NCBI RefSeq assembly: GCF_000189295.2
Contig: NC_016803.1
Span: 1,950,001 to 1,982,000 of the forward strand
Length of the DNA: 32,000 nt
Source of the DNA: Pseudodesulfovibrio mercurii
Lineage (GTDB): Bacteria > Desulfobacterota > Desulfovibrionia > Desulfovibrionales > Desulfovibrionaceae
Reading direction: 5' to 3'
Part shown: piece by piece, positions 18,857 through 28,503 of the stretch
How positions within the stretch are numbered: position 1 is the first letter of the stretch
How the letters are laid out: the number at the start of each line of letters is the position of its first letter
Position numbers and translations under genes: made by a program
Notes under the pieces: model-generated
The model's database searches: none
Told to the model about the DNA's origin: nothing
Seen by the model: only the letters and a program-made list of their open reading frames with translations

Positions 18857-19789
18857 TCAGAACCGCCAGAGAATCCGGGCGTAGCCGCCCAGGGCGCTGT
18901 CCAGGTCGTGGGACGACTTGTACGTGCCCGCCTTGTTGTACAGCTTGTACTTCCGATTATAGTTGTATTCCGGCCCGATGCTGAAGGTCAGGGCCTTGTT
19001 GGGCAGGTAGTCCAGGTAGATGCCTATCTTGGAGCGGACCACGCCGAGGTAGCCGCTGCCGTAGAGCGGGTTGTCCGAGGACAGCCGGTAGGTCTTCTCC
19101 TGGGTGGACAGGACGAAGTTCAGGCCGATGTTCTCCGAGCCGGGCTTGCTGTTCCTGACCAGCCCCACGGCCTCCAGGGTCCGGCGCAGGGTCTTCTGCG
19201 ACACGGCCACGGCCAGGCCGAGCTCCAGGTCGCCGAACAGGTCGCTGCTCAGGGCCGACACGGCCTGGGTCCGGGCGGTGATGCCGAGCATCCAGCCGTC
19301 CCAGAAGTCATAGGCCACCCCGCCGTCGAAACCCACGCCCACGGCTCCCGGGGCCACGTCCTCGTAGGAGCAGTCCAGCGCCCCGTTGACCCAGTACCGC
19401 CAATTGTCGCCCAGCCGGTTGTTGAACATCCGGGCCTGGACCGAGATGTTTTGGAGCGAATCCCACGGGGTGATCGTGCCCGAGGCCCCGAACCGCCGGG
19501 CCAGGGCGGCCCTGTCGGTCCATTCGAAATAGTCGATCTGGTAGGCCAGGTGGAAGATGGAGTAGTCGGCGGACATGGAGGCGCGGTTCACGGTCACGCT
19601 GCCCAGCCCGTTGGTGAAATCCGCATTGCCCACGAAACCGAGGTCGGCCTGGAGTTGCAGGTCCTGATTCACGTTGGTGGGCGCGGCCACCAGGAAGCCG
19701 GGCTCGTTGCCCATGGACAGGTCGGTGTCGGCCAGGGCGCAGGGCGCGCTGCCGAGCAGGATCAGGAGGATGACGAGGGCGCGCAACAT
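18857..19789 (-). CDS. Putative outer-membrane beta-barrel protein (family not recognised)
   Basis: ATG at 19789 gives the signal peptide MLRALVILLILLGSAPCALA. The sequence shows alternating hydrophobic beta-strand patterning, is rich in Tyr/Gly/Asn, and ends in the terminal aromatic motif ILWRF. Confidence 0.6.
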   Translation of the reverse strand: MLRALVILLILLGSAPCALADTDLSMGNEPGFLVAAPTNVNQDLQLQADLGFVGNADFTNGLGSVTVNRASMSADYSIFHLAYQIDYFEWTDRAALARRFGASGTITPWDSLQNISVQARMFNNRLGDNWRYWVNGALDCSYEDVAPGAVGVGFDGGVAYDFWDGWMLGITARTQAVSALSSDLFGDLELGLAVAVSQKTLRRTLEAVGLVRNSKPGSENIGLNFVLSTQEKTYRLSSDNPLYGSGYLGVVRSKIGIYLDYLPNKALTFSIGPEYNYNRKYKLYNKAGTYKSSHDLDSALGGYARILWRF

Positions 19790-19850
19790 GCGGCGAGAAA
19801 TACACCGTCGCCCTGGCGAAGGCAATAGCGCCCCCTCGGGCGCGGGGCGC

Positions 19851-19885
19851 AAAAAGGCCCGGTGCGGCGTGCGCCGGACCGGGCC
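19851..19885 (-). terminator. Rho-independent terminator downstream of secA
   Basis: Minus strand reads GGCCCGGT-(14-nt loop)-ACCGGGCC followed by TTTTT. Confidence 0.7.
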
Positions 19886-19912
19886 TGGACATGCGTCTTG
19901 CGCGCTGCGGGA

Positions 19913-22459
<2,547 letters not shown>

Positions 22460-22643
22460 GTATGGGTTCTCCAGAAAATCTTTGGCGGCCGGGGAGAGCG
22501 CGGCCGCGAACGCTGTAGTGCAAGATAACGTCGGGGAGGGGAAAGTCAACGCGACAATCGCGTGACAAAGCCCCTTTTCGCCCGGCGCGAACAGGGATAG
22601 CACAAACCGGGTCGGGCGTAAAAGGGCCGGTCCGGGCGGGAAA

Positions 22644-23449
22644 TCAGGCCGGGCGGTCGCCGTCCACCACGGACGCGGCCCCGCGCAGGCGCACGTACCA
22701 GGCAGCGCCCACGGCCCAACCCAGGACGGACACGCCGCACTGGACCGGAAGATGGAGCCACCGGGCATAGAATTCGGTGACCGGGCTCATGGGAGCCGCG
22801 GTGTGCGGGATATCCATGGGCAGCCGCCGGGCCGCCCACCACAGCAGCGCCGTCAGGAACAACGTCCCGGCGACCGGGCGCGACAATGCCCAGGAGCGCC
22901 GAAAGGACACGCGGTCCCCCACGGCCGCGCCCGCCAGGGTGAACCCGAAGCGGACGAGCAGGTGCAGCAGCGGCATGGCCGCCAGGTGGTAGGAGGCGGC
23001 CCAAAGCGGATAGACGTTCATGTCGAACAATGGCCCGGCCAGCCACTGCACACCCCGGCCGAGCAGTCCCCAGGCCTGGTCGAAGCAGAGATAATAACAG
23101 AAGGCGTAGGGCAGCGCCCGCAGGAACCGACGCGAAAAGTCCGGACAAAAAAACCGACGCTCCCCCTCCCCGTGCAGCACGGCGTTCGCCACGACCACGA
23201 GCAGGCCCAGGTGCAGCAACATCCTCAGTATGGACCACGACCGGCCGCCACGGAGAGCGGAACCCCGGTCATTCGCTCCAACGGCACCAGCTTGAAGGCG
23301 AGCGCCCACAGGTACAGACACGCGGCGCTCACGGCATAGAACGACGGGTCGGCCCGCAACCGTCCCGCAACCATGCAAAGGACCCCGCCGATCCGCCCCA
23401 GGGACGCCCGCCAGGCATCCTCGGCCTGCAGAAACCAGGGGATGGACAC
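22644..23449 (-). pseudogene. Membrane-protein paralog P4, apparently disrupted by a 1-nt frame change (or sequence error)
   Basis: The N-terminal third (GTG 23449; SIPWFLQAEDAWRASLG...) is in the frame of ORF 23225..23506. The rest (SILRMLLHLG...[11 protein letters not shown]) is in the frame of ORF 22644..23378. Both parts align with P1-P3. Confidence 0.6.
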
Positions 23450-23453
23450 GGGC

Positions 23454-24231
23454 TCAACCCCCTTCCGCCGGACTCGACGCCGCGTCTTCGCGGACCGCGA
23501 TGGCATACCACACGACCGTCAGGGCAAAGAGCGGCGGGACGAACAGGGAGGTCAGCAGGGAGAGGGCCACGGTCCAGGCCAGGGGGCCGGGGGAGGCGAA
23601 CCACTGCGCCATGCCCCAGTCCAGCCCCGCCAGCGGGGCGAAGGGCGCCCCCAGGAGAAGCAGCCCGGACAGCAGCATGGCCAGGCCCCGCCCATGAGTC
23701 AGCCGGAAGGACCGTTCGAGCGGCGACTTGCGCCCGTCCACCACGGCGGCCGGGACCAGAATGAGGCGCAGGGCCAGCCAGACGGCGGGCAGGCAGGACA
23801 CGGCCGTGACCACCAGGCGCGTCCCGAACCCCACGTCGGCAAGGGGCGTGTCCAGGAACATCCCCAGGACCGCCATGCCCGCGAGGGTCAGAATGACGGC
23901 GAAGACGCCCACCAGGGCGAAGACCGCCGCCGAGTACAGCCCGTACAACAGGAACTTTTTTCAGGAACGCCCGCGGCAGACGGCGGGCGTCGCCCTCCCC
24001 GTGCAGCAGGGCGTGCAGGAGGGCCACCTCCACCGGTATGAGCAGGATGGAAAAGGGCAGGCCGTACACGAACCATTCCAGCAGGTCGGCATCGGGCCGC
24101 AGCCAGTCGAGGGAGTCCCGGACCAGGCCGATGGCGGCCAGAAGGAGAAACGGGACGAGCAGCAGCCGCCGGCGTTCGGCGAGGAGCGTGAGGGCGCGTC
24201 GCGCCGCGACCCACGGGGACGGATTCGTCAC
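23454..24231 (-). pseudogene. Membrane-protein paralog P3, frame change inside an A6 tract (or sequence error / +1 slippage)
   Basis: The N-terminal 89 codons (GTG 24231; MTNPSPWVAARRAL...RLPRAFLKK) then turn into Arg/Pro/Gly-rich nonsense. The +1 frame continues as FLLYGLYSAAVF...VVWYAIAVRE (ORF 23454..23948). The junction is the T6 run at 23956-23961 on the plus strand. Confidence 0.65.
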
Positions 24232-24234
24232 CGC

Positions 24235-25146
24235 CTACCTGTCCTCCGGCAGGTCCGCGTACGGCCCCACGCCCGCTCCGCGCGCCGGGCCGGGGGCGGT
24301 TCCGGGCTCGGCGGAGAACCGGAATGCGGCCCCGGAACCGACGCCCGGTGCGGCCGCGCGCAGGCGGAGCTTCTCGTACCAGACCGCGTTCATGACCAGC
24401 AGGACGATCCAGGAGAACAGGTCGAGGACCAGCAGGACCAGGAACGACACGGCGGTCCCCGCGCCGATCCCCCCGCCCCCGTCCTTCATGGCGGAACCGA
24501 TGACGGCGACCTCGAAGAGCCCGGTCAGGATCATGACCGGCAGGACCACGGTCAGCATGGACCAGAACATACGCCAGGCGTGGCCCCTGGTCAGGGCCAG
24601 GGCCTCGCGCACCCCAACCACGTGGCCCACGGCCGCGCCGGGGATCATGACCATGAGCCGCAGGATCAGGCCGACGACGAAGGCATAGACCACGACCCCC
24701 GCGACCATGAACAGCGCGAGCAGGGACGGGTTGAACCCGGCCGGATCGGCGGGATCGTGGGGCAGGACCGCATAGGCCACGGCCGCCAGCGGCACCCCGA
24801 CCGCGAGCATGACGCCGAACATGACGGCCACGATGATCAGGCCACGGACAAAGACGCGGCCCATGGCGGGCCAGAAGGGTTGCGGCAGGACCGTGCCCGC
24901 CCCCCGCTGCATGGTCACGGCCAGGTGGTTGGACGCGGTCATCAGGAAGAGCGTGACCAGGACGTGAAGGACCACGGACAGCGCCACGGCCGGGCCGTAC
25001 CAGGAACGCGCCAGCGCGGGCAGGACCGTGACCGTCGGCAGGAGCACCAGGCTGACCAGGAGCAGTCCGAGGAACGCCCATTTCCGCCTCCAGCTCAGGG
25101 CCACGGACTCCCTGACCACGGCCCACGGCGAGATCTTGTTCGACAT
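24235..25146 (-). CDS. Membrane-protein paralog P2 (six predicted TM segments, unassigned family)
   Basis: ATG at 25146 has GGAGGA upstream and lies 2 nt after the P1 stop. The product starts MSNKISPWAVV, contains ALTRGHAWRMFW and ends near WYEKLRLRAA. The longer listed ORF (to 25605) overlaps P1 and is Arg/Gly-rich there. Confidence 0.75.
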   Translation of the reverse strand: MSNKISPWAVVRESVALSWRRKWAFLGLLLVSLVLLPTVTVLPALARSWYGPAVALSVVLHVLVTLFLMTASNHLAVTMQRGAGTVLPQPFWPAMGRVFVRGLIIVAVMFGVMLAVGVPLAAVAYAVLPHDPADPAGFNPSLLALFMVAGVVVYAFVVGLILRLMVMIPGAAVGHVVGVREALALTRGHAWRMFWSMLTVVLPVMILTGLFEVAVIGSAMKDGGGGIGAGTAVSFLVLLVLDLFSWIVLLVMNAVWYEKLRLRAAAPGVGSGAAFRFSAEPGTAPGPARGAGVGPYADLPEDR

Positions 25147-25148
25147 GT

Positions 25149-25958
25149 CTATTCCTCCCCGGCGGTCTGTTGTTGCGCGTCCGTCGGCGTCCCGGCGGCG
25201 CGCAGGCGGAGCTTCTCGTACCAGATGATGAAGGCCGCGAAGGTGAACCACATCACGGCCGTGCCCGCGACCATGAACCCCAGGTTCGCGGGCGAGAATG
25301 GATCGAAGGTCCGGGCCTCCACGGCCGGGCCGTTGACGACCTGCATGGCCCCATTCAGGAGGAGGAACGGCAGGGTGAACAGGAGCATCCGCAGGGAATG
25401 GCCCCGGGTCATGCGCCAGGAGAGCCGGAAGGAGGACTCGTCGCCCATGACCGTTGCGGGCAGAACCGGCCACCAGCGCACCGAGAAAAAGGCCAGGGGC
25501 AGCATGACCGCCGCCACGGTGAGCAGGGTCATGGCGAAGGACGGCTCCGCCCCTTCCGGCGCAGGCCACAGGATGACCACCGCCGCCACCATGACGACCC
25601 CGCACAGCATGCCCGCCCCCATGACCATGAACATCAGCAGGAACCCCCGGCCCAGAAAGCGCAGGTACCGGCCGAGGAAATGGTCGGGCAACAGGCCGGG
25701 GCGTTCGCGCAGGGCCGACAGGGAGTCGTGCAGCACCACCACGTACACGGCCGCCCCCGCCAGCAGGGAGAGGAGCCAGACCGTCAGGGTGAGCCCGTTG
25801 AACGGTTGGGCGGGATCCACGGAACCGGAAAGATAGATCGAGGGCGCCCCGGCCGCGAGCACGCCCAGCGCCCCGCCCAGATAGACCCGCCCGCGCAACC
25901 GCATGAGCCGCAGGGCGTCCACGGCCACTTCCAGGGGCGATATCCTGTCTCCCGCCAC
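25149..25958 (-). CDS. Membrane-protein paralog P1 (six predicted TM segments, unassigned family)
   Basis: GTG at 25958 lies 6 nt after the Fe-S subunit stop, with AAGGTAGG upstream. The product starts MAGDRISPLEV, contains LSWRMTRGHSLRMLLF and ends near WYEKLRLRAA. Confidence 0.75.
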   Translation of the reverse strand: MAGDRISPLEVAVDALRLMRLRGRVYLGGALGVLAAGAPSIYLSGSVDPAQPFNGLTLTVWLLSLLAGAAVYVVVLHDSLSALRERPGLLPDHFLGRYLRFLGRGFLLMFMVMGAGMLCGVVMVAAVVILWPAPEGAEPSFAMTLLTVAAVMLPLAFFSVRWWPVLPATVMGDESSFRLSWRMTRGHSLRMLLFTLPFLLLNGAMQVVNGPAVEARTFDPFSPANLGFMVAGTAVMWFTFAAFIIWYEKLRLRAAGTPTDAQQQTAGEE

Positions 25959-25964
25959 AAGTAC

Positions 25965-27107
25965 CTACCTTATGGTTTCAAGCCAGTGGCCCACCTCCAC
26001 GCGGTCCGGGGCCGTGGCCGAGAGCTGGGCCAGACAGGCGGAGCAGCCCGAGAGGACCACGTCCGCACCCTTGAGCGCCTCCCAGCAGGCGCGGTTGACC
26101 GGTTCGGTCAGGCCGGGCGCGGCCAGGCGCATGACCCCGCCGAAGCCGCAGCACTGCTCGTCCGTAACCCTGACCAGCCGGTCGCCCAGGAGCGCCCGGA
26201 GCCAGGTCCGGTCCGGGTCGTCCTTGCCCGCGTGGCACGGGTGGTGGTAGCCGAGCCGGTCCGGTGCATTGTCGGATATCATAAATTCTATGCCCCGTAC
26301 AGCCACCGACAAGGGCAAAAGCGCCTGGTTCCACTGCGCCTTTTCCCCGTCGGACTCGAAGGCGTCGTAGGCCCGCAGCCCGGCCAGGCAGGAGGCGCAG
26401 AACACGGCCACGCGCGGCCGCCCGGCCTCGCGCCAGACCGCCACGTTGCGCCGGGCCATCTCCCCGGCCTCGTCCGCGAACCCGGCCCCCTTCAGCCCCG
26501 AGCCGCAGCAGGCGAAGTCGCCGGGCAGGACGTCCGCGCCCAGGCCGTCCAGCAGCCGCAGGGCGGCCGTGAGCCAGCGGCCCTGCACGTAGTTGGCCGT
26601 GCAGCCCGCGAACAGGAGCATGCGTTCGCCGCGCCAGTCGTCGGGGAAGGCCCTGGGCGTGAGGAAGGGATCGAGGCCCGGCCCGCCGGTCATGCCCGCG
26701 AGCATCTTGAGCATGGGCCCGAGCTTCTCGGTGCGGAACCGCTCGGGGATGAGCGCGGCGGCCTTGGAGCTGGGCGACCAGAGCTGGCGGGCGCGGGTCA
26801 GCCAGGTCTTCCACAGCCAGGACTTGAAATTCGGGTGCGCACCGCGCAGGGCGGCCACCAGGCCGGGCACGTCCTGACCCTGGGAGCAGACCTCGCGGCA
26901 CCGGCCGCAGCCCAGGCAGAGCCCGGCCAGCCGGGCGGCGTCGGTCTCGGACAGCTTGTCCGGGTCCTCGGCCAGGACCCGGCAGAGGTCGGACTTGGAA
27001 CGCGGCCCGAGTTCCTCGCGGCCCGTGGCCTTGAGCAGCGGGCAGGCCTGGAGGCACTTGCCGCACAGGATGCAGTGGGAGACGTGTTCGGAAACGGGGT
27101 CGGCCAT
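25965..27107 (-). CDS. (Fe-S)-binding oxidoreductase subunit, GlcF-like (two 4Fe-4S motifs plus CCG domains)
   Basis: Ferredoxin-type motifs are CILCGKCLQACP and CLGCGRCREVC. Cysteine-rich CCG-type segments are CCGSG, HHPCH and EQCCGFGG. The start lies 7 nt after the GlcD-like stop. Confidence 0.85.
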   Translation of the reverse strand: MADPVSEHVSHCILCGKCLQACPLLKATGREELGPRSKSDLCRVLAEDPDKLSETDAARLAGLCLGCGRCREVCSQGQDVPGLVAALRGAHPNFKSWLWKTWLTRARQLWSPSSKAAALIPERFRTEKLGPMLKMLAGMTGGPGLDPFLTPRAFPDDWRGERMLLFAGCTANYVQGRWLTAALRLLDGLGADVLPGDFACCGSGLKGAGFADEAGEMARRNVAVWREAGRPRVAVFCASCLAGLRAYDAFESDGEKAQWNQALLPLSVAVRGIEFMISDNAPDRLGYHHPCHAGKDDPDRTWLRALLGDRLVRVTDEQCCGFGGVMRLAAPGLTEPVNRACWEALKGADVVLSGCSACLAQLSATAPDRVEVGHWLETIR

Positions 27108-27114
27108 GGTCCGC

Positions 27115-28503
27115 CTACCACCCCTTACCGGGGTTCATGATCTCGTGGGGGTCGAAGACGCGGCGCACGGTCTCCATGAAATGGAGCTGGTCCGCGCCGA
27201 GCTGCTCGGGCACGAAGGAGGCCTTGGTCAGGCCGGTGCCGTGCTCGCCCGAGATGGTCCCGCCCAGTTCCACGGCGGCCCGGAAGAGCCGCTCCTTGAC
27301 CTGGTGGGCGGCGCGGACCTCCTCGGGGTGGGCCGCGTCGTGCATGATGTTGGTGTGGATGTTGCCGTCGCCCAGGTGGCCGTAGCAGAGCACGGGCAGC
27401 CCGGCGTCGGCCCCGGCCTTTTGGGCGATGCGCACCAGCTCGGGCACGCGGCCGCGCGGCACGGCCAGGTCCTCGGAAAGCTTGTCGGGCCGGAGCCGGT
27501 AGGAGCCGGGCGAGATGTCCCGGCGGGCGGCCCAGACCGCTTCCTCGGCCTCGCCCTCGCCCACCTCCAGGGAGACCGGCCCCACGGCCGCAAGCGCCGC
27601 CTCGAGCCGTCGGATCTCGGCGGCCACGCCCTCGGCCGTGCCGTCGAACTTGAAGAGCAGCGCGGCCTGGGCCTGCGGGGCCAGGGGGATGTCGCCGCCC
27701 AGGCGCACGGCCTTGATGGTGGTCACGTCCATGAACTCGCAGGCGCAGGGCAGGAGCCCGGCCCCGAAGACGGCCATGGCCCCGTTCATGGCCCCGTCCA
27801 GGTCGGCGAAGCCCACCAGCACGGAGCTGGAGGTCTCGGGCAGGGGGATGAGCTTGACCGTGGCCCGGGTGATCAGGCCGAGCTTGCCGTCCGCGCCGAC
27901 AAAAAGGCGCTTCAGGTCCAGGCCGACCACGTCCTTCTGGGCCCGGCCGCCCATGGTCAGGACCTTGCCGCCGGGGAGCACGGCCTCGATGCCCAGGACC
28001 CAGTCGCGGGTCACGCCGTACTTAACGGCCCGCAGCCCGCCCGCGCAGGTGGAGATGTTCCCGCCCATGGTGGAGATCTTCACGCTGGCCGGGTCCGGGG
28101 GATAGAAGAGCTTCTTCGCGGCGCATGCCTGCTGGAAGTCCGCCGTGATCACGCCGGGCTCCACCTCGGCGGCGAAGTCGCGTTCGCTGATGTCGAGGAT
28201 GCGGTTCATGCGTAGCAGGGACACGGTCACGCCGTGCAGGAGCGGCACGGTGTTGCCCACCTGCCCGGTGGCCCGTGCGCGCGGATAGAGCGGCATGCGC
28301 TCGGCGTCGGCCCAGCGCAGGAGTTCGGCCGCCTGGTCCCGGCTCTCGGGCCGGACCACGGCCCAGGGCATGGACCGCTCGCGGCTCGCGTCCGTGGAAA
28401 AGGCGTTCATTTCCTCGGTGTCGAGGACGCACCCGTCGCCGGGGAAGAGATCGGTCAGGAACGCCCGGTGGGCGTCTGTCAGGGAGGTGGCGTAATTCGG
28501 CAT
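27115..28503 (-). CDS. glcD: FAD-linked oxidase, GlcD-type (probable D-lactate dehydrogenase)
   Basis: FAD-binding PCMH domain shows PWAVVRPES...PRARATGQVGNTVP. The C-terminal oxidase domain shows GTISGEHGTGLTK and FDPHEIMNPGK. Pairing with a GlcF-like Fe-S subunit matches the Desulfovibrio Dld-II arrangement. Confidence 0.88.
   Translation of the reverse strand: MPNYATSLTDAHRAFLTDLFPGDGCVLDTEEMNAFSTDASRERSMPWAVVRPESRDQAAELLRWADAERMPLYPRARATGQVGNTVPLLHGVTVSLLRMNRILDISERDFAAEVEPGVITADFQQACAAKKLFYPPDPASVKISTMGGNISTCAGGLRAVKYGVTRDWVLGIEAVLPGGKVLTMGGRAQKDVVGLDLKRLFVGADGKLGLITRATVKLIPLPETSSSVLVGFADLDGAMNGAMAVFGAGLLPCACEFMDVTTIKAVRLGGDIPLAPQAQAALLFKFDGTAEGVAAEIRRLEAALAAVGPVSLEVGEGEAEEAVWAARRDISPGSYRLRPDKLSEDLAVPRGRVPELVRIAQKAGADAGLPVLCYGHLGDGNIHTNIMHDAAHPEEVRAAHQVKERLFRAAVELGGTISGEHGTGLTKASFVPEQLGADQLHFMETVRRVFDPHEIMNPGKGW

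What the first reader, a model, noticed from the sequence alone, without database searches (positions are those of the whole stretch)
23940..23965. Paralog P3 changes reading frame inside an A6 tract that allows perfect +1 re-pairing
In the minus-strand reading, ...CTG AAA AAA GTT... continues into Arg/Pro/Gly-rich nonsense. The +1 frame (AAA AAG TTC CTG TTG TAC...) continues as KKFLLYGLYSAAVFALVG. That sequence aligns with the LPxxF-loop/TM3 region of P1 (LPDHFLGRYLRFLGRGFLL) and P2 (LPQPFWPAMGRVFVRGLII). With five A residues the gene would be an intact 258-codon ORF. There are four possible explanations: a homopolymer sequencing error, a genuine 1-nt insertion (young pseudogene), a length-variable on/off switch, or ribosomal +1 slippage. 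For slippage, tRNA-Lys can re-pair perfectly on the A run. Six A is short for classical phase variation or transcriptional slippage, so error or pseudogene is the default.
Basis: seen in the sequence. Interest (0 to 1): 0.5.

Follow-up and report, generated by a model that had tools for sequence, protein, structure and literature searches.

The report
Frameshift-broken membrane-protein paralog, likely young pseudogene
One of four tandem membrane-protein genes in Pseudodesulfovibrio mercurii ND132 really is broken by one extra base at a run of six A's, and since its neighbour is broken too while relatives keep both genes intact, this is most likely ordinary recent gene decay, not programmed frameshifting.

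Summary
On the minus strand, gene P3 (24231..23454) changes frame at CTG AAA AAA G TTC, where the A6 run is 23961..23956. Removing one base gives an open 258-codon gene that aligns without gaps to intact orthologs.

The window is Pseudodesulfovibrio mercurii ND132. A separately assembled read set (Logan contig of SRR3926153) matches the window base for base across the site, so a sequencing error is unlikely.

The closest relative found (82.5% nt identity, nine contigs) has the same A6 in frame (AAA AAA TCC) and an intact gene. The extra base may therefore be the G after the run (23955) and not a sixth A. Two more distant species are intact and have no A run there.

The next gene, P4, carries a second, independent lesion. 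It has lost the T of a conserved Trp codon at 23243|23242, and its protein has evolved faster on the ND132 branch (23 vs 7 changes, p=0.005). Other species have only two or three genes in this array, so P3 and P4 are dispensable.

I found no shift-site conservation, no Shine-Dalgarno-like stimulator, no unusual RNA structure and no Rfam match.

Verdict: a young, lineage-specific frameshift pseudogene. A low level of +1 slippage that rescues some product (rare AAA codons, abundant AAG in the +1 frame) is possible but untested.

The parts
25149..25958 (-). P1, an intact paralog (269 aa) and the first gene of the array after the CCG/Fe-S gene
   Evidence: ORF. Weak, sub-threshold Pfam hit to PF10110 GPDPase_memb (E 0.001, 18.3 bits against a cut-off of 29.6). 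Aligned with the other paralogs.
24235..25146 (-). P2, an intact paralog (303 aa), annotated as DND132_1777
   Evidence: P0003 is 100% identical and is named hypothetical protein DND132_1777 of Pseudodesulfovibrio mercurii. Orthologs of 282-303 aa occur in every related locus examined.
23956..24231 (-). P3, upstream-frame part (GTG start, codons 1-92, ...RLPRAFLKK)
   Evidence: Aligns to residues 4-93 of the intact ortholog (frame -3).
23956..23961 (-). A6 run (AAA AAA, Lys-Lys), the only place where a +1 shift could be productive
   Evidence: Also present in frame in the closest relative. AAA makes up 4 of 105 Lys codons in six intact genes of the window.
23961..23963 (-). TGA in the downstream (+1) frame, which sets the 5' limit of the frame-change window
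   Evidence: frame 0...CRGRS*KKFLLYG
23955..23955 (-). G directly 3' of the A6 run. This is the base with no counterpart in the alignment to the closest relative, so it is the candidate inserted base.
   Evidence: ND132 has AAAAAA G TTC CTG TTG TAC; the relative has AAAAAA TCC GTG ATG TAC.
23454..23954 (-). P3, downstream-frame part (FLLYGLY... to the TGA stop). Positions 23454..23948 are annotated as the 164-aa protein DND132_1776, starting at a TTG.
   Evidence: tblastn frame -1 for ortholog residues 92-258. GC3 is 0.90-0.97.
23329..23955 (-). Continuation of the unshifted frame: 208 codons of Gly/Arg/Pro-rich out-of-frame sequence. It ends 120 nt inside P4, past the P4 start codon.
23243..23449 (-). 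P4, N-terminal part (GTG start, VSIPWFLQ...PLSVAA). Its unshifted frame stops after 74 codons.
   Evidence: tblastn frame -2 for ortholog residues 5-69.
23242..23243 (-). P4 lesion: a 1-nt deletion. The T of a conserved Trp codon is missing (GCC-GG TCG TGG, where four relatives have GCC/GGC TGG TCG/TTG TGG).
   Evidence: Present in the separately assembled contig L003.
22644..23242 (-). P4, C-terminal part in the -1 frame. Positions 22644..23222 are annotated as the 192-aa protein DND132_1774.
   Evidence: tblastn frame -1 for ortholog residues 70-260.

Best explanation
P3 is a recently inactivated gene. It sits in a four-gene tandem array of paralogous multi-helix membrane proteins of unknown function, between a CCG-domain Fe-S oxidoreductase gene and secA, in Pseudodesulfovibrio mercurii ND132.

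One extra base entered the DNA at the 3' edge of an ancestral in-frame Lys-Lys tract (AAA AAA). It is either the G at 23955 or one A, if the second codon had first become AAG. Ribosomes starting at GTG 24231 therefore read 92 correct codons, covering the first two predicted helices. They then read 208 out-of-frame codons and stop inside P4. The product is presumably useless.

The downstream paralog P4 was inactivated separately by a 1-nt deletion and already shows faster protein evolution. P4 probably decayed first and P3 followed, because the pair is dispensable in this lineage.

Shown here: the lesion is real, it is specific to this lineage, orthologs are intact, P4 carries a second lesion, and array size varies across the genus. 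Inferred: loss of function, the order of events, and the absence of meaningful recoding.
For: - Identity of the window: DND132_1776; DND132_1777.
- The lesion is real: Logan contig L003 from SRR3926153 is an exact 982-nt match to window 23122..24103 and covers both lesions.
- Orthologs are intact and align without gaps across the junction. These are P0002/L001 at 264 aa, P. karagichevae L004 at 264 aa, and the closest relative L005/L010-L017, which is intact in nine contigs from eight SRA runs plus one JGI metagenome.
- Frame switches are local: of 14 syntenic genes compared with L001, only P3 and P4 switch frame.
- P4 lesion. Ten full-length P4 orthologs (261-267 aa) and two shorter hits (207 and 241 aa) were found; only ND132 has a fragment caused by the lesion.
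- Polarised amino-acid changes, ND132 branch versus relative branch: P4 23:7 (p=0.005), P3 31:23 (p=0.34), P2 11:14.
- Dispensability: the array has two genes in L009 and three in L008 (P3 absent), with no remnants. P3-type proteins are very rare, with 6 hits among 1.84 billion representatives.
- No recoding signals: the nearest Shine-Dalgarno-like GGGGAGGG ends about 30 nt upstream (sequence), the downstream RNA fold has z = -0.9, and there is no Rfam hit.
- No intact 258-aa ND132-type protein exists in the 5.8-billion-protein collection.
Against: - P3 shows no decay beyond the single lesion. The repaired frame is open for 258 codons, all family-invariant residues are kept, GC3 downstream is as high as in intact genes, and there is no significant rate acceleration. 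This fits a very young lesion, but it equally fits a gene that is still expressed.
- The site is mechanistically favourable for +1 slippage. The P-site Lys-tRNA can re-pair perfectly, the unshifted A-site codon AAA is rare (4 of 105), and the +1 codon AAG is the common one (101 of 105).
- dN/dS is high even for the intact P2 (0.85), so it cannot discriminate.
- The nature of SRR3926153 is unknown.
- No second P. mercurii strain was available.
Confidence: 0.78

Rival explanations
1. Leaky or compensatory expression. The lesion is a real mutation, but spontaneous +1 ribosomal slippage on AAA AAA G, or loss of one A during transcription, restores the frame in a fraction of products. Some full-length P3 (LKKF junction) would then be made, and the gene would stay partly functional. 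During a pause on the rare second AAA codon, the P-site Lys-tRNA would move from AAA to the overlapping AAA. The abundant AAG decoder would then read the +1 codon.
For: - Perfect re-pairing is possible on the A run (sequence).
- AAA is 4 of 105 Lys codons and AAG is 101 of 105.
- A slow-to-decode A-site is the main driver of +1 shifting, for example Ty1 CUU_AGG_C (PMC5009743).
- P3 shows no decay beyond the lesion.
- The TGA in the +1 frame lies just 5' of the run, so any shift on the run is productive.
Against: - There is no stimulator: no Shine-Dalgarno-like sequence at the right spacing, no unshifted-frame stop, and no RNA structure.
- The shift site is not conserved, because all relatives are in frame.
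- Six A's is below the run length usually needed for transcriptional slippage in bacteria, about 8-9 (PMC5009743; PMC3711429).
- The partner gene P4 is broken at a non-slippery site with no rescue path.
- The tRNA-Lys complement of ND132 was not checked.
Confidence: 0.12
2. Sequencing or assembly error in the ND132 reference. The real gene would be intact, and the extra base an artefact at a homopolymer.
For: - The site is at a homopolymer.
- BLASTp-validated singleton frameshifts in genomes are often sequencing errors (PMC3711429).
- From my own knowledge, not checked here: the reference genome dates from the 454 era.
Against: - The Logan assembly of SRR3926153 reproduces the window exactly over 982 nt, including this site and the P4 deletion.
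- The P4 lesion is not in a homopolymer.
- The closest relative also has A6, so the unmatched base is a G and not a run-length miscount.
- The 12 other syntenic genes show no frame breaks.
Confidence: 0.05
3. Evolved recoding or an on/off switch: a programmed +1 frameshift, or phase variation by change in A-tract length, that regulates P3.
For: - The frame change lies on a slippery homopolymer made of two rare codons, and the relative keeps the same unusual AAA AAA.
- The array behaves as a fast-evolving locus with variable copy number, a setting in which contingency genes are sometimes found.
Against: - It is a singleton: no ortholog has a frameshift. Under the criteria of PMC3711429, programmed frameshifts need a conserved site in several genes.
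- A6 is too short for classical phase variation.
- Tract length is identical in the reference and L003, and in all nine contigs of the relative.
- No intact ND132-type allele is present in the protein collection.
Confidence: 0.03

Closest known systems
Lineage-specific frameshift pseudogene (a 'singleton' frame transition validated by homology, as classified by GeneTack; Antonov et al. 2013, PMC3711429)
   Same: A single 1-nt indel at or next to a homopolymer. Both halves match one intact homolog. The lesion is not shared with any other genome. A neighbouring paralog is also disrupted. The gene is absent from other species of the genus.
   Different: There is no secondary decay yet in P3 (no further indels or stops, and no rate acceleration), so it is very young. 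The sequence context could allow some translational rescue.
Hungry-codon +1 frameshift sites (yeast Ty1 CUU_AGG_C) and compensatory frameshifting at indels in homopolymers (herpesvirus thymidine kinase G-run); review PMC5009743
   Same: The P-site tRNA can re-pair in the +1 frame. The unshifted A-site codon is rare in this genome, and the +1-frame codon is the common synonym. The unshifted-frame product would be useless.
   Different: There is no evidence of any shifting here and no conservation. The tRNA pools of ND132 are unknown. The Ty1 and thymidine kinase cases were shown experimentally.
prfB (release factor 2) programmed +1 frameshift, CUU_UGA_C with an upstream Shine-Dalgarno-like stimulator
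   Same: The required shift is +1 and occurs at a single P-site slip.
   Different: There is no unshifted-frame stop codon at the site and no Shine-Dalgarno-like sequence 3 nt upstream. The site is not conserved in orthologs.
dnaX-type A_AAA_AAG -1 frameshifting, and transcriptional slippage on A/T runs (Thermus dnaX, IS elements, Buchnera poly(A) rescue)
   Same: The sequence AAA AAA G resembles the dnaX slippery motif. Loss of one A during transcription would also restore the frame.
   Different: A -1 shift here gives a stop after 24 codons (frame 1), not the conserved frame. The run is 6 nt, whereas transcriptional slippage usually needs about 8-9.
Pfam PF10110 GPDPase_memb (membrane domain of glycerophosphoryl diester phosphodiesterase) and similar uncharacterised multi-pass membrane families
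   Same: About 260-300 aa with about six long helices. P1 has a weak local match. A source name for P2 begins 'Glycerophosphoryl dieste...'.
   Different: All scores are below the Pfam threshold, and P3 and P4 have no hit. There is no phosphodiesterase domain and no structural match in the PDB.

Membership tests
Frameshift pseudogene (recent, lineage-specific) | Both halves of the broken gene align colinearly to one intact homolog, with a 1-nt offset | tested here: met
   The repaired P3 aligns without gaps across the junction to orthologs of 259-264 aa. tblastn HSPs change frame at 23956-23960.
Frameshift pseudogene (recent, lineage-specific) | The lesion is present in the organism's DNA and is not an assembly artefact | tested here: met
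   the Logan contig from SRR3926153 is identical over 982 nt. Caveat: the type of that run is unknown, and raw reads were not inspected.
Frameshift pseudogene (recent, lineage-specific) | The lesion is not shared by orthologs | tested here: met
   L001, L002, L004, L005 and L010-L017 are all in frame.
Frameshift pseudogene (recent, lineage-specific) | Signs of relaxed constraint (extra lesions, faster non-synonymous change) | tested here: inconclusive
   P3: 31 vs 23 polarised changes (p=0.34), no further lesion, omega 0.99 against 0.85 for the intact P2. The neighbour P4 shows 23 vs 7 (p=0.005) and has its own frameshift.
Frameshift pseudogene (recent, lineage-specific) | The gene is dispensable in related genomes | tested here: met
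   P3 is absent from L008 and L009, with no remnant by tblastn; in L006 and L007, P2 is followed directly by a P4-like gene.
Programmed +1 ribosomal frameshift (prfB-like / Ty1-like) | The frameshift and shift site are conserved among orthologs | tested here: not met
   no ortholog needs a shift. The more distant orthologs have AGG AAA TCT.
Programmed +1 ribosomal frameshift (prfB-like / Ty1-like) | A slow or stop codon in the unshifted-frame A site, with P-site re-pairing possible | tested here: inconclusive
   Re-pairing is perfect. There is no stop codon. AAA is rare by codon usage (4 of 105), but tRNA abundance was not measured.
Programmed +1 ribosomal frameshift (prfB-like / Ty1-like) | A stimulatory element (Shine-Dalgarno-like sequence a few nt upstream, or a 3' structure) | tested here: not met
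   The nearest GGGGAGGG ends about 30 nt upstream. The downstream 95 nt fold with z = -0.9. There is no Rfam match.
Programmed +1 ribosomal frameshift (prfB-like / Ty1-like) | The trans-frame protein is actually produced | not testable with these tools
   This needs proteomics or a reporter assay.
Programmed transcriptional realignment | A homopolymer of about 8-9 nt or more, conserved in homologs | tested here: not met
   The run is 6 nt. The thresholds come from PMC3711429 and PMC5009743.
Phase-variable (contingency) gene | Tract length is polymorphic between isolates or read sets, and both on and off alleles are seen | tested here: not met
   The reference and L003 are identical. Nine contigs of the relative all have A6. 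No intact ND132 allele is in the protein collection. Only consensus assemblies were compared, not reads.
Pfam PF10110 GPDPase_memb | Score at or above the family's gathering threshold | tested here: not met
   P1 scores 18.3 bits against a cut-off of 29.6. P2, P3, P4 and their orthologs have no hit.

The most novel reading that the evidence does not exclude
The AAA AAA G site acts as a natural hungry-codon +1 shift site in a high-GC bacterium: two rare AAA codons, with the abundant AAG available in the +1 frame. On this reading, ND132 still makes a useful fraction of full-length P3 from a gene that looks broken. The frameshift would tune P3 down instead of destroying it.
Probability: 0.08. Interest if true: 0.5.

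Novelty: new member of a known kind. Interest (0 to 1): 0.15.

Why it matters
The practical consequence is for annotation. DND132_1776 (164 aa) and DND132_1774 (192 aa) are not genuine short proteins. They are the C-terminal pieces of two frameshifted paralogs, and both should be marked as pseudogenes.

The case also shows that a frame change sitting on a homopolymer need not be a change in run length. Here the closest relative carries the same A6 in frame.

If low-level +1 slippage were shown at this site, it would be a clean bacterial example of codon-usage-driven compensatory frameshifting. Nothing here requires that.

The wider locus may be of more interest than the frameshift. It is a fast-evolving array of membrane proteins of unknown function next to secA, and its copy number varies between species.

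Tried and rejected
- dN/dS between ND132 and the closest relative was uninformative. Omega was 0.85 for the intact P2, 0.99 for P3 and 0.50 for P4.
- Both metagenome scans found nothing, one with a protein-alignment pattern and one with a junction DNA pattern.
- The genome-contig scan returned one locus only and did not return ND132 itself.
- Exact-product look-ups of ND132 P1, P2, the 300-aa unshifted-frame ORF and the CCG protein found nothing on record. SRR3926153 is therefore the only extra read set, and I could not establish what kind of run it is.
- Paper searches for SRR3926153, for DND132_1774-1778 locus tags, and for ND132 sequencing data gave nothing useful.
- Pfam gave no family above threshold.
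- The AlphaFold2 model of the intact ortholog was of low confidence (pLDDT 66), and Foldseek against the PDB gave no meaningful match (best E 0.93, TM below 0.3).
- Rfam gave no match except a chance CRISPR-repeat hit (E 0.39).
- A -1 shift was rejected because it reaches a stop after 24 codons.
- A separately translated C-terminal half was rejected because there is no Shine-Dalgarno sequence before the TTG at 23948 (sequence).

Full report
**What is there.** The window comes from Pseudodesulfovibrio mercurii ND132. ORF 23454..23948(-) is 100% identical to the product of DND132_1776, and the upstream paralog is DND132_1777. On the minus strand, four paralogous genes lie between a CCG-domain Fe-S oxidoreductase gene (25965..27107) and secA (about 19913..22459):
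- P1: 25149..25958
- P2: 24235..25146
- P3: 23454..24231
- P4: 22644..23449

The + strand has T6 at 23956..23961, which is A6 in the sense of the gene.

The ORF from GTG 24231 reads ...RLPRAFLKK. It then runs through 208 codons of Gly/Arg/Pro-rich sequence to a stop at 23329. The +1 frame reads KKFLLYGLYSAAVFALVG... to the stop at 23454.

In that +1 frame, a TGA (23963..23961) overlaps the first A of the run. The upstream frame matches orthologs up to FLKK. The frame change is therefore confined to the A6 plus the following G.

Removing one base gives 258 codons. The result aligns with the LPxxF / third-helix region of P1, P2 and P4. GC3 periodicity changes phase at about 23960 and stays at 0.90-0.97 afterwards.

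**Is it an error?** A Logan assembly of a different sequencing run (SRR3926153, contig L003, 982 nt) is an exact match to window 23122..24103. I could not find out what kind of run this is, and no raw reads were inspected. Even so, an independent assembly giving the same sequence makes an assembly artefact unlikely. Among 14 genes syntenic with a related genome, only P3 and P4 change frame, so the region does not carry scattered indel errors.

**Relatives.**
- A Pseudodesulfovibrio MAG (L001/L002) and P. karagichevae 9FUS (L004) carry intact P3 orthologs of 264 aa, 54-55% identical. The junction reads TTA AGG AAA TCT TTG/CTG AGC (L R K S L S), with no A run.
- The closest relative found is 82.5% identical at the nucleotide level over 1366 nt. 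It is one JGI metagenome contig (L005) plus eight Logan contigs from eight runs (L010-L017), all identical to each other at the junction. Its P3 is intact and has the same A6 in frame: CTG AAA AAA TCC GTG ATG TAC.
- ND132 reads CTG AAA AAA G TTC CTG TTG TAC. The most parsimonious alignment makes the G at 23955 the unmatched base.
- The alternative is that the second Lys codon first changed to AAG and an A was then inserted into the A5 run. That costs one more substitution but uses a more mutable site. I regard the two as about equally likely. Both repairs give the same protein (LKKF).

**A second lesion next door.** P4 is also frameshifted. ND132 has GCG GCC -GG TCG TGG, where four relatives have GC(C/G) TGG T(C/T)G TGG. 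The T of a conserved Trp codon is missing between 23243 and 23242. This is not a homopolymer and not a slippery site. L003 has it too. Ten full-length P4 orthologs (261-267 aa) and two shorter hits (207 and 241 aa) were found, whereas the ND132 annotation holds only a 192-aa C-terminal piece, DND132_1774.

Using L001 and L004 as outgroups, I counted amino-acid changes on the ND132 branch against the branch of the closest relative:

| Gene | ND132 branch : relative branch | p |
|---|---|---|
| P4 | 23 : 7 | 0.005 |
| P3 | 31 : 23 | 0.34 |
| P2 | 11 : 14 | 0.69 |

P4 looks like the older casualty and P3 the recent one. Nei-Gojobori dN/dS was not informative, because even the intact P2 gives 0.85.

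**Dispensability.** The array has two genes (P1, P2) in one Pseudodesulfovibrio genome (L009) and three (P1, P2, P4) in 'Desulfovibrio caledoniensis' (L008). It has four in L001 and L004. In the closest relative it has four plus a 518-aa fusion of two P1-like modules. tblastn finds no P3 remnant in L008 or L009. P3-type proteins are extremely rare, with six hits among 1.84 billion representative proteins. With P3 and P4 broken, ND132 effectively has the two-gene state that other species show.

**Recoding.** A productive shift must be +1 and must happen on the two AAA codons.
- Against a programmed event: no ortholog needs a shift. There is no unshifted-frame stop. The nearest Shine-Dalgarno-like motif (GGGGAGGG) ends about 30 nt upstream. 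The 95 nt downstream fold no better than shuffles (z = -0.9). Rfam finds nothing.
- By the published criteria for classing frame transitions, this is a homology-validated singleton, meaning an error or a recent indel and not a programmed frameshift (PMC3711429).
- Six A's is below the run length at which bacterial transcriptional slippage is usually seen, about 8-9 (PMC5009743; PMC3711429).
- A -1 shift gives a stop after 24 codons.
- In favour of some leakiness: in six intact genes of the window, AAA makes up 4 of 105 Lys codons and AAG 101 of 105. A ribosome would pause on a rare AAA with a P-site Lys-tRNA that can re-pair perfectly one base on, and the new A-site codon would be the common AAG. 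This is the logic of hungry-codon +1 sites such as Ty1 (PMC5009743). It is an inference only. I did not check ND132's tRNA genes, and nothing shows that shifting occurs.

**What the proteins are.** No Pfam family reaches threshold. P1 has a weak local match to PF10110 GPDPase_memb (18.3 bits against a cut-off of 29.6). An AlphaFold2 model of the intact P3 ortholog has low confidence (pLDDT 66) and shows six long helices. The lesion falls at the start of the third helix, so the truncated product would keep two. Foldseek against the PDB gave no meaningful match. The function is unknown.

**Verdict.** This is a real, lineage-specific 1-nt insertion at the edge of an ancestral Lys-Lys A6 tract, and it makes P3 a young pseudogene (confidence about 0.78). 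It lies next to an independently frameshifted and more decayed P4. Rival explanations are leaky compensatory slippage (about 0.12), reference error (about 0.05) and an evolved switch or programmed recoding (about 0.03). This is an ordinary kind of feature, so interest is low.

Noticed in passing
window 22644..23449 (-), lesion at 23243|23242: The next paralog, P4, is also frameshifted, by a 1-nt deletion in a conserved Trp codon. The annotated DND132_1774 (192 aa) is only its C-terminal piece. Its protein has evolved faster on the ND132 branch (23 vs 7 changes, p=0.005).
   Followed up: yes
window 22644..25958 compared with L001, L004, L008, L009, L010: The array between the CCG/Fe-S gene and secA varies from 2 to 4 genes across Pseudodesulfovibrio. 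The closest relative has an extra 518-aa gene made of two fused P1-like modules (L010 1912..3468). In P. karagichevae, P1 and P2 read as one 569-aa ORF (L004 2280..3989).
   Followed up: partly
window 18857..28503 compared with L001: The array proteins diverge far faster than their flanks. Amino-acid identity is 0.93 for SecA, 0.91 for the FAD oxidase and 0.87 for the CCG protein, but 0.26 for P1, 0.55 for P2, 0.53 for P3 and 0.67 for P4. Synonymous divergence is also higher (0.44-1.15 against 0.19-0.33). This suggests allele replacement by recombination, or diversifying or relaxed selection, at this locus. The cause is unexplained.
   Followed up: partly
window 23956..23961 and L005/L010-L017: The Lys-Lys pair is encoded by two AAA codons in both ND132 and its closest relative, although AAA is only about 4% of Lys codons in the intact genes of the window. 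I do not know why this unusual pair is kept.
   Followed up: partly
window 23147..23153: P4 contains an in-frame T7 run in the gene's sense (CGG TTT TTT TGT, R F F C). The closest relative has T5 there (CGG TTT TTC GGG). This is another mutable homopolymer in the same array.
   Followed up: no
window 19913..22768 (-): The longest secA ORF (951 aa) carries an N-terminal extension of about 100 aa with no counterpart in the 848-aa orthologs. The true start is most likely the ATG of [10 protein letters not shown]... at 22459.
   Followed up: partly
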